Part shown: positions 5,117 through 53,528 of the stretch, piece by piece | Position numbering within the stretch: the first letter of the stretch is position 1 | How the letters are laid out: every line of letters begins with the position of its first letter | NCBI GenBank assembly: GCA_947570175.1 | Contig: CANOTJ010000001.1 | Location: forward strand, 133,027 to 197,026 | DNA: 64,000 nucleotides | Direction of reading: 5' to 3' | Origin: an uncultured Mycoplasmatota bacterium | GTDB lineage: Bacteria > Bacillota_I > Bacilli_A > RF39 > UBA660 | The notes under the pieces: model-generated | Databases searched by the model: none | Told to the model about the DNA's origin: nothing | Seen by the model: the letters and a program-made list of their open reading frames with translations, nothing else | Translations under genes and position numbers: made by a program

Positions 5117-5670
5117 TTAAGAAATAATATCAACATTGCATAGTATCAAAATATGTCTCTTATGAGCGGGACTAGTGGCATAACCACCATTTCCGAATTT
5201 TTCTAGTGTATGTTTATAACATTCCTCAATTGTTTCTTCTTCACTAACTTTATCAAAATGTGTAATGCTATAAAGATAAATTCTTTTTAGTGAATCATCA
5301 ACATCAATATTTCTATCTGCAGACGATAATATTTTTCCATAAATACTTCTAGGTTCTCTAGCTAATGAGGCTCTGTGATCTTCTATTGCTTCTTTCATTA
5401 TTATTAAATTATCATCACTAAAAAATTTATTTAAGTTCGTATCATTATACATAATTTGTGCAGAAACTTTTTCATGATTTTTATAATCTATATGGTAACC
5501 TATATCATGATATGCTGCTATTGCATATAGCATGTTAATGTCAACATTAATTTATAACATCTGCTAATAACATATTTAACATGCTCTATTTGATGTCCTT
5601 TATCATTTAATTTATATTGTGAAAATATATTTTGTTCAATATACCTTTTTAATTCTTTATTCACATTCAT
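5117..5670 (-). pseudogene. HD-domain phosphohydrolase gene interrupted by a frameshift
   Basis: An ATG at 5670 opens MNVNKELKRYIEQNIFSQYKLNDKGHQIEHVKYVISRCYKL, the N-terminal His region. That frame stops at 5523-5521. The listed ORF 5117-5533 (MLYAIAAYHDIGY..., containing the HD dyad) continues in another frame, in which INVDIN precedes MLYAIAAYHD. The frame switch falls at about 5545-5565, where there is no homopolymer run. Confidence 0.5.
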
Positions 5671-5734
5671 TAACTCATCTCTAATAATAATTGTAATAGG
5701 CGACTAGATAAGTTTATAAAATTAGCATGTTCGC

Positions 5735-5763
5735 TTGTTTTTATCTATTACTAATAGTATGAT
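5735..5763 (+). promoter_or_regulatory. candidate promoter of the small-peptide mRNA
   Basis: TTGTTT (5735-5740), 17-nt spacer, TATGAT (5758-5763). Confidence 0.4.
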
Positions 5764-5833
5764 ATTTTTAGGAATATTTAGTTAGTTTGGGTACTATTCT
5801 CCTTTACTTTTAAAAGTGGAAGGAGGTGAAATT

Positions 5834-5926
5834 ATGAGAAAGAAAGACGAATATCTTTGTACTATCATAATACTCCTTATTATTGTGATTTTAGTCATTT
5901 TAATAAAAATAGTACCAACTGTATAA
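5834..5926 (+). CDS. 30-aa hydrophobic peptide, candidate type I toxin
   Basis: MRKKDEYLCTIIILLIIVILVILIKIVPTV. SD AGGAGGTG ends 5 nt before the ATG. That SD can be sequestered by CTCCTT (5799-5804). Not in the ORF track because it is too short. Confidence 0.4.
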   Translation: MRKKDEYLCTIIILLIIVILVILIKIVPTV

Positions 5927-6013
5927 GTCGGTACTAGACAAAATTATTTTGGAATAGTACCTAACTTAGCAAAACTAGGTATTCCTCTTTTATTTTATGC
6001 AAGTTTCCTTGAC
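5903..6013 (-). ncRNA. candidate antisense RNA convergent with the small-peptide gene (antitoxin-like)
   Basis: Minus-strand promoter TTGACA (complement of 6043-6048), 17-nt spacer, TACTAT (complement of 6020-6025), with an upstream TG (extended -10). A hairpin AGTACC/GGTACT (5911-5935) plus a U-run ends the transcript at about 5903. The RNA overlaps the last 8 codons and the 3' UTR of the peptide mRNA. Transcript ends are predicted, not measured. Confidence 0.3.
5951..5997 (+). terminator. rho-independent terminator of the small-peptide mRNA
   Basis: GGAATA/TATTCC and CCTA/TAGG stems with a 3-nt bulge, followed by TCTTTTATTTTAT. Confidence 0.5.
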
Positions 6014-6217
6014 ATATTCATAGTAACATATTTTTTAATTCTTGTCAAAAATTCATATTAGAAAATTTATGTTTTTATATATATATATAATTAATGGTAT
6101 GAAAATTTTATATAAAGTAGTAAATTAGTAGTAAAATAGATATTAAATCATTCATACATTGTTTAAGATAAAGGGCTAGTAGTGAAAACTAATATTTTTA
6201 TATAAAAAAGTCTTTAG

Positions 6218-6814
6218 TCAAGACTCTTTCAAATTTGTTAAAATTAAACTTTCAACTTCATGAAATAGTTTTTGGTTTGCCTCTTCTAAAGTCATATTTC
6301 CAACTTTAAAGGGTTTCCCATATCGAATGGTCAGATTTTTATTTTTAAATTTGTAATCACCACTAATTCCAAAAGGAATAATAGTTGCATTTGTTTTTTT
6401 AGCCATTGCTACAGTACCAAATTTGAAAGGAAGAAGTAGTTCTTCTGTTTTGTTTCTAGTACCTTCAGGAAAAAGACCAATTGCTCCTTTGTGATTTAGG
6501 ATATCTATGGCATAGTTCTTTGCTGTTTCGTCATTTCCATTTCGATTGACACAGATACAACCAACAAATTTGAAAAACCAAGCCATTTTTCCTTCAAAGT
6601 ACTCTTTTTTTGCCATATAATGAATAGCTCTTTTCGTTGCCAGAATAGTTAAGCATTGATCATAAATATGTTTATGATTCCCAACAATTAAGATTGGACC
6701 TTCCTTTGGAATATAGTCTTTATGAATAATCGTGGGGTGATAATAAATATGAAAGAGTAATCGCATAATAGGAGTTAACAGTTGATATCCAAATTCACCT
6801 TTAAATTTTTTCAT
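6218..6814 (-). CDS. PlsC-family (lysophospholipid) acyltransferase
   Basis: HX4D catalytic motif NHKHIYD and the FPEGTRN block, 198 aa. Its start overlaps the stop of the upstream ligase gene by 14 nt. Confidence 0.8.
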   Translation of the reverse strand: MKKFKGEFGYQLLTPIMRLLFHIYYHPTIIHKDYIPKEGPILIVGNHKHIYDQCLTILATKRAIHYMAKKEYFEGKMAWFFKFVGCICVNRNGNDETAKNYAIDILNHKGAIGLFPEGTRNKTEELLLPFKFGTVAMAKKTNATIIPFGISGDYKFKNKNLTIRYGKPFKVGNMTLEEANQKLFHEVESLILTNLKES

Positions 6815-53280: not shown

Positions 53281-53337
53281 TTGTAAAGTTTTATAAATTG
53301 TATTGACTTTTCAAATTAAACAATTTATAATTATCAT

Positions 53338-53430
53338 AGCGTGATAATATTCACGCCAACACTCTTACGGTTTTATAGATGAGAGTGTAACCAAAACCCC
53401 CTGAAGAGCCCATTTTGGGCTCATTTTTGT
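53338..53430 (+). ncRNA. candidate ~93-nt sRNA with a consensus promoter and an intrinsic terminator
   Basis: TTGACT (53303-53308), 17-nt spacer, TATAAT (53326-53331). Hairpins are GCGTGA/TCACGC and ACACTCT/AGAGTGT, followed by an unpaired AAAACCCCCUGAA. The terminator GAGCCCA/TGGGCTC (53406-53422) is followed by ATTTTTGTTT. Confidence 0.4.
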
Positions 53431-53528
53431 TTGATTTAAAGGGCTCTAGTTTAATTTATTTAGTTTCAACCACCATTCAACTACCCAAAATAGTATTTTT
53501 TGAAAAGTTTAAGGTGGTTTAATTTAGT

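What the first reader, a model, noticed from the sequence alone, without database searches (positions are those of the whole stretch)
5735..6048. Hidden convergent small-toxin/antisense-RNA module (type I toxin-antitoxin architecture)
The apparently empty 5.7-6.2 kb gap contains a complete small-peptide expression unit.
1. A promoter, TTGTTT-17-TATGAT (5735-5763).
2. A 30-codon ORF (5834-5926) encoding MRKKDEYLCTIIILLIIVILVILIKIVPTV, a charged head followed by one about 20-residue hydrophobic helix. It has SD AGGAGGTG.
3. An SD-sequestering hairpin: CTCCTT (5799-5804) and ACTTTT (5806-5811) pair with AAAAGT (5812-5817) and AAGGAG (5820-5825).
4. A 5'-3' fold-back. The 5' UTR segments GGAATATTTAGTT (5771-5783) and GGTACTATTC (5790-5799) are complementary, with two G-U pairs, to AACTAGGTATTCC (5973-5985) and GAATAGTACC (5952-5961) in the mRNA's own terminator. 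This resembles hok-type mRNAs.
5. A convergent minus-strand promoter of near-consensus quality, TTGACA-17-TACTAT with TG extension (6048-6020). Its predicted ~110-nt RNA ends at an AGTACC/GGTACT hairpin plus U-run and is fully complementary to the last 8 codons and the 3' UTR.
Taken together this is the logic of txpA/RatA, bsrG/SR4 and fst-like loci. The peptide matches none of those toxins that I can recall.
Basis: partly seen in the sequence, partly recalled or inferred. Interest (0 to 1): 0.7.

Follow-up and report, generated by a model that had tools for sequence, protein, structure and literature searches.

The report
Undescribed type I toxin–antisense RNA cassette
The "empty" gap holds a compact, conserved cassette: a tightly silenced 30-residue membrane peptide gene and a convergent antisense RNA. 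It has the layout of a Gram-positive type I toxin-antitoxin system but matches no described family, and it appears to move between uncultured gut bacteria.

Summary
Window 5735-6048 is a promoter-to-promoter cassette.

- A weak plus-strand promoter drives a ~229-nt mRNA.
- The mRNA's 5' end pairs with its 3' end (MFE -67.5 kcal/mol, z -6.1).
- The Shine-Dalgarno sequence and the AUG are both sequestered.
- The ORF encodes 30 residues, MRKKDEYLCTIIILLIIVILVILIKIVPTV.
- A near-consensus convergent promoter with a TG extension drives a ~113-nt antisense RNA. Its terminator hairpin lies over the stop codon.

The same cassette occurs in at least 17 loci from other uncultured gut Bacilli or "Tenericutes" assemblies. 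Every genomic context differs, and three assemblies carry two copies. Homology stops at the two -35 boxes. Promoter hexamers are conserved while their spacers diverge.

Two sequence-divergent relatives, L106b and L134, keep every architectural element with different nucleotides (z -8.1 and -8.6).

The cassette is 89-90% identical in DNA between genomes whose flanking genes are only 66-73% identical. That points to horizontal spread.

Pfam, NCBIfam, Rfam and a literature string search give no match. The closest analogue is B. subtilis bsrG/SR4. Transcription, toxicity and neutralisation are untested.

The parts
5735..5763 (+). Toxin promoter: -35 TTGTTT (5735-5740), 17-nt spacer, -10 TATGAT (5758-5763). 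Weak -35.
   Evidence: Read directly. The hexamers are conserved (TTGTTT; TATAAT in most relatives) while the spacer diverges. Homology to other loci begins here.
5770..5998 (+). Predicted toxin mRNA, about 229 nt. The start is inferred from the -10 box and the end from the U-tract.
   Evidence: MFE -67.5 kcal/mol, z -6.1. In a 16-sequence alignment 94% of cells are paired, against 41-53% when partners are slid. The opposite strand of the same region folds 11.4 kcal/mol less well.
5770..5799 (+). 5' strand of the fold-back helices P1 (5770-5783) and P2 (5784-5799).
   Evidence: Helices 1 and 2 are 96-98% paired across 16 sequences, and most of the changes (14 of 23 changed cells) are G-U/A-U/G-C switches that keep a standard pair.
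5800..5824 (+). Anti-SD hairpin: UCCUUUACUU (5800-5809) pairs with AAGUGGAAGGA (5814-5824) and covers the SD.
   Evidence: The arms covary in L133 (CCCUUC/GAAGGG), L106b and L134.
5820..5828 (+). Shine-Dalgarno sequence AAGGAGGTG.
   Evidence: It is conserved as AAGGAGG, AAGGGAGG or AAGGUGGUG in all family members.
5834..5926 (+). 30-codon ORF MRKKDEYLCTIIILLIIVILVILIKIVPTV, the putative membrane toxin. The AUG region 5831-5837 pairs with 5865-5871.
   Evidence: The ORF keeps 30 codons in 15 of the 16 aligned copies (one has a frameshift extension) and in L106b, and 26 codons in L134. Substitutions in the hydrophobic core are all hydrophobic-to-hydrophobic. The overlapping minus-strand ORF is broken in relatives.
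5910..5936 (.). Hairpin across the stop codon. On the minus strand it is the intrinsic terminator of the antisense RNA, followed by UUUUUAUU.
   Evidence: It is the only terminator-like site in 2 kb. A hairpin is kept at the same place with different sequence in L106b and L134.
5952..5998 (+). 3' strand of the fold-back (P2 5952-5966, P1 5973-5986), followed directly by the U-tract 5987-5998, which is the mRNA terminator region.
6020..6048 (-). Antitoxin promoter: -35 TTGACA (6048-6043), 17-nt spacer, TG-extended -10 TACTAT (6025-6020).
   Evidence: Joint top-scoring promoter match in 2 kb (10/12) and the only one of those with a TG extension. The hexamers and the TG are conserved while the spacers diverge. 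Homology to other loci ends here.
5900..6013 (-). Predicted antisense RNA, about 113 nt: the putative antitoxin. It is complementary to mRNA 5900-5998, that is, the last ~8 codons, the 3' UTR and the 3' fold-back strand.
   Evidence: z -4.2.
5117..6197 (.). Insertion/deletion block relative to a sister lineage. It holds a disrupted HD-domain gene (5117-5670, minus strand), the cassette, and 150 bp of AT-rich DNA.
   Evidence: In L004 and L005 (PlsC 94% identical) Hsp20 and PlsC are 48 bp apart.

Best explanation
The cassette is a chromosomal type I toxin-antitoxin module of an undescribed sequence family.

Proposed mechanism:
- A weak promoter makes a ~229-nt mRNA for a 30-residue single-helix membrane peptide.
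- The mRNA folds into one large hairpin. Its first ~30 nt pair with the ~35 nt just before the terminal U-tract.
- A local anti-SD hairpin covers the ribosome-binding site, and the AUG pairs with codons 11-13. The full-length transcript should therefore be translationally inert.
- A stronger convergent promoter makes a ~113-nt antisense RNA. It is perfectly complementary to the last ~8 codons, the 3' UTR and the 3' fold-back strand.
- Contact probably starts between the antisense terminator loop and the complementary mRNA loop over the stop codon.
- The resulting ~99-bp duplex strips the 3' strand from the 5' UTR and exposes the mRNA to RNase III-type cleavage. In the predicted fold, nt 5798-5799 freed from the fold-back then pair with 5825-5826, the last two G's of the GGAGG core, extending the anti-SD helix by two pairs.
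- If the antisense RNA is lost, peptide would accumulate in the membrane and stop growth.

Shown here: the sequence elements, their predicted folds, and their conservation and covariation. Inferred: transcription from both promoters, translation, toxicity, neutralisation and nuclease involvement.
For: Anatomy is confirmed.

Comparative evidence:
- The same 30-residue peptide lies in a homologous ~320-bp block in ten species-representative genomes. Further variants came from protein searches.
- Homology in most loci is limited to about window 5730-6050, from one -35 box to the other.
- The hexamers of both promoters are kept while their spacers diverge.
- In 16 sequences, 94% of structure cells are paired against 41-53% when partners are slid. 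The covariation score was reached by 0 of 500 shuffles.
- The anti-SD and SD covary.
- The divergent paralogue L106b (MMRKKDMLISVLLLIITLLIITLLVLIIKK) and the L134 subfamily (MKRENKFLKVIILLLILIIVILIFEI) keep the promoter, fold-back, anti-SD hairpin, AUG helix, post-stop hairpin and convergent promoter with different sequence. Their z-scores are -8.1 and -8.6.
- G-U pairs make the fold specific to the plus strand.
- Changes in the hydrophobic core are all conservative, and the ORF on the other strand decays in relatives.

Hallmarks of type I loci:
- Three assemblies carry two copies: L024+L059, L064+L136, and the L106 tandem.
- Every genomic context differs.
- The cassette is absent from a sister lineage.
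- It is 89-90% identical in DNA where flanking orthologues are 66-73% identical.

The layout matches the probed bsrG/SR4 structure: a P1 helix of nt 1-35 with 232-262, the SD in a stem, and a 3'-overlapping antitoxin that frees the 5' strand and lengthens the SD helix. That paper also reports an antitoxin promoter stronger than the toxin promoter (PMC3834814). T1TAdb names SD/anti-SD pairing and 5'-3' long-distance interactions as key determinants of type I toxin mRNAs (PMC8594479).
Against: - There is no transcript, translation or toxicity data. All host genomes are uncultured metagenome assemblies.
- The toxin promoter is weak by consensus, and such matches are at chance frequency in this DNA.
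- The peptide matches no known toxin family.
- Its charge cluster is N-terminal. From my recollection of their sequences (not verified here), Fst, BsrG, TxpA and SprG carry a C-terminal polar tail.
- The SD and AUG stay sequestered in every modelled state, so how translation is ever activated is not explained.
- Several natural variants have lost the stop codon or carry a frameshift at the 3' end. They have 10-48 extra residues, which might mean relaxed selection on the peptide in some lineages.
- Covariation within the close family rests on few double changes: 7 pairs, against 2.8 +/- 1.3 in shuffles.
Confidence: 0.75

Rival explanations
1. The cassette encodes a non-toxic small membrane protein, for example a modulator of a membrane complex. 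A cis-antisense RNA and mRNA folding merely tune its expression, so it is not an addiction or toxin module.
For: Toxicity is untested. Stop-loss and frameshift variants with C-terminal extensions are tolerated. The peptide has no similarity to known toxins. In several lineages it is linked to an HD-domain gene.
Against: Silencing in three layers (fold-back, anti-SD, AUG pairing) plus a stronger antisense promoter is the signature of genes whose product is harmful (PMC3834814, PMC8594479). The cassette is multi-copy, in a different context every time, present or absent between close lineages, and far more conserved than its host genome. That pattern fits a selfish module better than a housekeeping accessory. 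The linked HD gene is a pseudogene in the window while the cassette is intact.
Confidence: 0.15
2. The conserved block is a mobile non-coding element: a structured RNA, or a MITE-like DNA repeat with internal inverted repeats. On this view the short ORF is incidental.
For: The block is ~320 bp with sharp boundaries, lies in many unrelated contexts at ~90% identity, has long internal inverted complementarity, and has no mobility gene.
Against: The ORF keeps its length, SD, spacing and a basic-then-hydrophobic pattern in three subfamilies that share little nucleotide sequence. Core substitutions are all hydrophobic-to-hydrophobic. The complementarity uses G-U pairs and is 11 kcal/mol better on the plus strand, so it acts in RNA and not in DNA. 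The block ends are promoter -35 boxes, not terminal inverted repeats. No target-site duplication is seen at the indel junction. No copy was found in viral contigs.
Confidence: 0.06
3. The features are a chance coincidence of promoter-like and hairpin-like sequences in AT-rich intergenic DNA.
For: Promoter-like hexamer pairs occur at chance frequency here.
Against: Fold z-scores of -6 to -8.6 come from three independent sequence versions. The block is conserved across genomes whose flanks are 66-73% identical. Only one such ORF exists in 64 kb.
Confidence: 0.01

Closest known systems
bsrG/SR4 of Bacillus subtilis (SPbeta prophage), a type I toxin-antitoxin system
   Same: The genes are convergent and the antitoxin RNA is complementary to the 3' part of the toxin mRNA, including the end of the ORF. 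The mRNA's 5' ~35 nt pair with its 3' region in a long helix P1, and stem-loops branch from it. The SD sits in a stem. Antitoxin binding must release the 5' strand, and the SD helix is predicted to lengthen (4 to 8 bp in bsrG; +2 bp here). The antitoxin promoter is stronger than the toxin promoter. The antitoxin terminator loop faces a complementary mRNA loop (PMC3834814).
   Different: There is no peptide similarity. From my recollection of the sequence, BsrG is 38 residues with a polar, cationic C-terminus, whereas this peptide is 30 residues with a charged N-terminus. Here the 3' strand of P1 abuts the U-tract directly, with no separate strong terminator hairpin. The overlap is about 99 nt. 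No Rfam family, whichever toxin or antitoxin RNAs it covers, matched. The host is an uncultured gut lineage, not a prophage of Bacillus.
txpA/RatA and sprG/SprF (TxpA family)
   Same: The antisense RNA lies on the 3' side and overlaps the end of the ORF, which is the organisation listed for Gram-positive families in PMC8594479. Decay through an extended duplex is expected.
   Different: From my recollection, TxpA and SprG peptides are longer and have C-terminal polar tails. There is no sequence match.
hok/Sok and aapA1/IsoA1 (Gram-negative type I systems)
   Same: A 5'-3' long-distance interaction makes the full-length mRNA inert. Alternative folding during and after transcription is likely. 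The peptide is 30 residues, the same length as AapA1.
   Different: In those systems the antisense RNA lies inside the 5' part of the mRNA and targets a 3'-processed, activated species. Here the antisense RNA targets the 3' end itself. There is no leader ORF (mok) and no homology to Hok (best NCBIfam E-value 0.73).
Fst/RNAII (par of pAD1) and SprA1/PepA1
   Same: Convergent transcription, a small hydrophobic peptide, and a 5' stem that sequesters the SD.
   Different: The Fst-family model NF033608 detects Fst and PepA1 (E 1e-8 and 5e-16) but none of these peptides. In Fst systems the RNAs interact through repeats outside the overlap, and the overlap does not reach the ORF.

Membership tests
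Type I toxin-antitoxin systems (the general class) | A small (<60 aa) hydrophobic peptide ORF with a predicted transmembrane helix | tested here: met
   The ORF has 30 codons: 7 polar or charged residues followed by about 20 consecutive hydrophobic residues. It is the only ORF in the window to pass the filter. The pattern is conserved.
Type I toxin-antitoxin systems (the general class) | An antisense RNA gene with extended complementarity to the toxin mRNA | tested here: met
   This is shown in silico only. A convergent TTGACA-17-TGnTACTAT promoter and an intrinsic terminator define a ~113-nt RNA that overlaps 99 nt of the mRNA. Both signals are conserved in relatives. Transcription was not observed.
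Type I toxin-antitoxin systems (the general class) | Cis elements that silence the toxin mRNA: SD/anti-SD pairing and a 5'-3' long-distance interaction | tested here: met
   with covariation. PMC8594479 lists these features as key determinants.
Type I toxin-antitoxin systems (the general class) | The peptide is toxic when expressed, and the RNA neutralises it | not testable with these tools
   This needs expression experiments.
Gram-positive 3'-overlap organisation (TxpA/RatA, BsrE-G-H, YonT, SprG) | The antisense RNA lies on the 3' side, partly overlaps the mRNA and reaches into the ORF | tested here: met
   The antisense 3' end at ~5900 lies in codon 23, so the overlap is 5900-5998. The definition is from PMC8594479.
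BsrG / TxpA / SprG toxin sequence families | Peptide sequence homology | tested here: not met
   No Pfam or NCBIfam hit at E <= 10. BsrG recalled from memory gave only a weak, sub-threshold ComI match (20 bits against a 55-bit cut-off), and recalled TxpA hit no toxin model. These peptides hit nothing. Model coverage of these small families is incomplete, so this test is weaker than the Fst test.
Fst/Ldr superfamily | A match to the Fst family profile (NF033608 / PF13955), which includes the APxxxG core motif | tested here: not met
   The positive controls Fst and PepA1 scored E 1e-8 and 5e-16. The window peptide and three variants scored nothing. They have no APxxxG motif.
Hok/Gef family | A match to the Hok profile, a mok leader ORF, and a Sok-type antisense RNA near the 5' end | tested here: not met
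   The best E-value is 0.73 (9.7 bits against a 73-bit cut-off), and only for the paralogue. The antisense RNA is at the 3' end.
Known antitoxin or toxin RNA families in Rfam | A covariance-model match at the gathering score | tested here: not met
   There are no hits in the window or in L106, L134 and L136.

The most novel reading that the evidence does not exclude
The ~320-bp promoter-to-promoter cassette may be a self-sufficient selfish unit. On this reading it spreads horizontally among distantly related gut Bacilli with no mobility gene of its own. Its mRNA would terminate on a stem formed by the transcript's own 5' and 3' ends, so the transcript is one whole-length hairpin. Termination, silencing and the antitoxin target would then be the same ~35 nt. 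That would contradict the view that type I systems are poorly mobile (PMC5367252).
Probability: 0.2. Interest if true: 0.7.

Novelty: new member of a known kind. Interest (0 to 1): 0.5.

Why it matters
[quoted passage not shown] The known families come almost entirely from cultured Proteobacteria and Firmicutes.

This cassette is a well-delimited, comparatively supported candidate family from uncultured, small-genome gut Bacilli. Gene callers either miss it or fuse it to 5'-UTR-derived sequence.

Three sequence-divergent versions share one architecture. That gives a ready-made covariation set for studying how fold-back, anti-SD pairing and a 3' antisense RNA cooperate.

The cassette is about 90% identical across genomes whose flanking genes are about 70% identical. 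That makes it a test case for horizontal mobility of type I modules.

Its small size and self-contained regulation could also suit it as a portable RNA control device or a counter-selection marker for low-GC Firmicutes.

Tried and rejected
An exact look-up of the 30- and 36-residue products found no called gene.
- The peptide-level DNA pattern found nothing in viral contigs and one contig in JGI metagenomes. There is therefore no evidence of phage carriage.
- phmmer of the peptide against 1.84 billion representatives gave only two hits, both mis-called versions of the same gene.
- A profile of the two divergent subfamilies found only itself.
- Rfam gave nothing, at E-value threshold on the locus and at gathering threshold on the window and on three relatives. 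Pfam and NCBIfam gave nothing.
- A literature string search for the peptides found 0 papers.
- No second copy exists in the window by blastn, tblastn or the ORF filter.
- The minus-strand 34-codon ORF (5794-5898) was rejected as coding. It has stops, frameshifts and a lost start in relatives.
- A DNA-level inverted repeat or MITE was rejected on strand asymmetry and the lack of terminal repeats or target-site duplication.
- I did not build a covariance model, because a ~230-position model would probably exceed the calibration limit.
- I could not retrieve literature toxin sequences as text.

Full report
**Observation**

The window is low-GC DNA (27.7% GC). Protein matches and locus titles place it in an uncultured gut "Bacilli/Tenericutes"-type lineage.

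The 5.7-6.2 kb gap lies between a disrupted HD-domain gene (minus strand, 5117-5670) and a PlsC-type acyltransferase (minus strand, 6218-6814).
- TTGTTT-17-TATGAT at 5735-5763.
- SD AAGGAGGTG at 5820-5828.
- A 30-codon ORF at 5834-5926.
- A minus-strand TTGACA-17-TACTAT promoter with a TG extension at 6048-6020.

The consensus scan ranks the minus-strand promoter joint top in 2 kb (10/12) and the only one of those with a TG extension. It finds one terminator-like site, the minus-strand hairpin 5936-5910 followed by TTTTTATT. The plus-strand promoter falls below that scan's threshold because its -35 matches at only 3 of 6 positions. Promoter-like hits as a class are at chance frequency here (13 against 15 +/- 3.7). 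The toxin promoter is therefore credible only because of conservation, described below.

**RNA folds**

The predicted mRNA (5770-5998) has an MFE of -67.5 kcal/mol and z -6.1. The fold contains:
- P1, 5770-5783 with 5973-5986, and P2, 5784-5799 with 5952-5966. Together they close the whole transcript, and the U-tract 5987-5998 follows directly.
- An anti-SD hairpin, 5800-5809 with 5814-5824.
- A helix pairing the AUG region (5831-5837) with codons 11-13.
- A hairpin across the stop codon (5910-5936).

Otherwise the description is accurate.

The same region read on the minus strand folds 11.4 kcal/mol less well. That fits G-U pairs that work only in the plus-strand RNA. The predicted antisense RNA (6013-5900, ~113 nt) folds into three hairpins, the last being its terminator (z -4.2).

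**Relatives**

- Contigs of the same species are identical across the gap.
- A sister lineage with PlsC 94% identical has Hsp20 and PlsC only 48 bp apart. Window ~5117-6197 (HD pseudogene plus cassette) is therefore an insertion/deletion with no target duplication.
Substitutions were conservative only: D5E, C9Y, T10I/S, V21I, V30L/I.
- phmmer and a profile search recovered more variants. All had been mis-called, either with a 5'-UTR-derived N-terminal extension or with a stop-loss C-terminal extension. Examples are MRAQERF..., MRKSEKT..., MTRRENY... and the divergent MKRENKFLKVIILLLILIIVILIFEI.
- Three assemblies carry two copies: L024+L059, L064+L136, and a tandem pair in L106.
- Flanking genes differ in every locus. 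The exception is a subset that shares the HD gene, which is intact at 207 residues in L130-L132.

**What is conserved**

In most loci, homology to the window is confined to about 5730-6050, from the -35 of one promoter to the -35 of the other. Both promoters keep their hexamers, and the antisense promoter keeps its TG extension, while the spacers diverge, sometimes completely.

In a 16-sequence alignment, 94% of structure cells are paired, against 41-53% when partners are slid. Helices P1, P2 and the anti-SD hairpin are 96-98% paired, with many one-sided G-U/A-U/G-C switches. Seven pairs have double changes, against 2.8 +/- 1.3 in shuffles. This alignment is shallow and the structure was taken from the window sequence, so I weight it modestly.

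The stronger evidence comes from divergent versions:
- L133 changes the SD to AAGGGAGG and the anti-SD to CCCUUC.
- The tandem paralogue L106b (MMRKKDMLISVLLLIITLLIITLLVLIIKK) rebuilds the promoter, P1, P2, anti-SD hairpin, AUG helix, post-stop hairpin, U-tract and convergent TG-extended promoter from different nucleotides, with z -8.1.
- The L134 subfamily rebuilds the same elements except the U-tract after P1, with z -8.6.

**Coding evidence**

- The ORF has 30 codons in L106b and in 15 of the 16 aligned window-type copies; L131 carries a 1-nt insertion that extends it to 40. L134 has 26 codons.
- Codons 2-10 vary but stay polar or charged.
- In codons 11-26 every non-synonymous change is hydrophobic to hydrophobic (I/L/V/M/F/A), alongside about seven synonymous changes.
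- The overlapping minus-strand ORF acquires stops, frameshifts or a lost start in relatives.

**Mobility**

L106 and L012 carry orthologues of window genes at 51-74% amino-acid and 66-73% nucleotide identity. Their cassettes are 89-90% identical to the window's and lie at non-orthologous sites. I read this as horizontal spread. Extreme constraint on every position cannot be formally excluded. No copy was found in viral contigs.

**Mechanism**

The free mRNA should be inert, because the SD and the AUG are both paired. The antisense RNA is complementary to the 3' strands of P1 and P2, so it competes with the mRNA's own 5' UTR for that strand.

I modelled the antisense-bound state by blocking nt 131-229. 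The anti-SD hairpin persists and gains two pairs with the last two G's of the GGAGG core. This is the behaviour shown experimentally for bsrG/SR4: P1 of nt 1-35 with 232-262, the SD stem lengthened from 4 to 8 bp on SR4 binding, RNase III-dependent decay, and an antitoxin promoter stronger than the toxin promoter (PMC3834814).

I therefore propose duplex-triggered decay plus reinforced SD occlusion, starting from a contact between the antisense terminator loop and the complementary mRNA loop over the stop codon.

Two points stay open:
- How translation is ever activated.
- Whether P1 itself acts as the terminator stem. The local hairpin before the U-tract is weak in the window (-8.2 kcal/mol) and essentially absent in L106b (-1.7).

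**Comparison with known systems**

The organisation is the Gram-positive 3'-overlap type (PMC8594479). The closest architecture is bsrG/SR4. The fold-back also recalls hok and aapA1, but those antisense RNAs act near the 5' end.

Sequence membership tests failed for all known families:
- No Pfam or NCBIfam hit at E <= 10.
- The Fst model detects the Fst and PepA1 controls but none of these peptides.
- No Rfam match.
- No literature occurrence of the peptide strings.

The charge cluster is N-terminal, with almost no C-terminal tail. By my recollection of their sequences, most Gram-positive toxins have the opposite arrangement.

**Verdict**

This is a new sequence family of a known kind of system, with good comparative support and no functional data.

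Confidence that it is a genuine type I toxin-antitoxin module is about 0.75. The main rival is a non-toxic small membrane protein under antisense control, at about 0.15. Interest is 0.5.

Noticed in passing
window 5117-5670 (minus strand): The HD-domain phosphohydrolase gene next to the cassette is split into two overlapping ORFs of 50 and 138 residues. It is probably a frameshifted pseudogene. Relatives L130-L132 carry an intact 207-residue version in the same divergent arrangement with the toxin gene, and L090 shares the whole HD-plus-cassette block at 87% identity.
   Followed up: partly
L106 544-786 (minus strand); the same sequence is in L129: A second, sequence-divergent toxin/antisense cassette lies in tandem about 415 bp downstream of the first. 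It encodes MMRKKDMLISVLLLIITLLIITLLVLIIKK and has its own promoter pair, fold-back and anti-SD hairpin.
   Followed up: yes
window 53281-53528: This intergenic region lies just past the end of the window's synteny with L106, next to the orthologue of a gene that sits about 250 bp upstream of L106's cassettes. It holds a near-consensus promoter (TTGACT-17-TATAAT), a ~110-nt GC-richer structured stretch and a clean terminator (GAGCCCATTTTGGGCTC followed by TTTTTG). It may be an unannotated small RNA. The only Rfam match is far below threshold (16.4 bits against a gathering score of 100, E 0.14).
   Followed up: partly
P0121 (L130-L132), P0124, P0126, P0130: Several natural variants have lost the stop codon or carry a 1-nt insertion just before it. 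These add 10-48 residues read from the 3' UTR, for example ...KIVPTVISRYLNNFLE. They could be decaying copies, sequencing errors or tolerated extensions.
   Followed up: no
P0122-P0131 (protein database entries): When gene callers annotate this locus at all, they start in the 5' UTR and produce 54-75-residue fusion ORFs, for example ...FSFIKMKGGEI-MRAQERF.... The correct 30-residue product is not on record. The family is therefore effectively invisible in protein databases.
   Followed up: partly
L130 993-1945: An IS-type transposase pair (HTH_Tnp_1 plus rve) lies about 260 bp from the HD-plus-cassette block in one metagenome contig. It is the only mobility gene seen near any copy.
   Followed up: no
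window 6049-6210: About 160 bp of very AT-rich DNA, including a TATATATATATA run, lies upstream of the antisense promoter. It is co-conserved with the cassette in L059 and L090 only. It may be an UP-element or extended promoter region, or a remnant of a larger transferred block.
   Followed up: no
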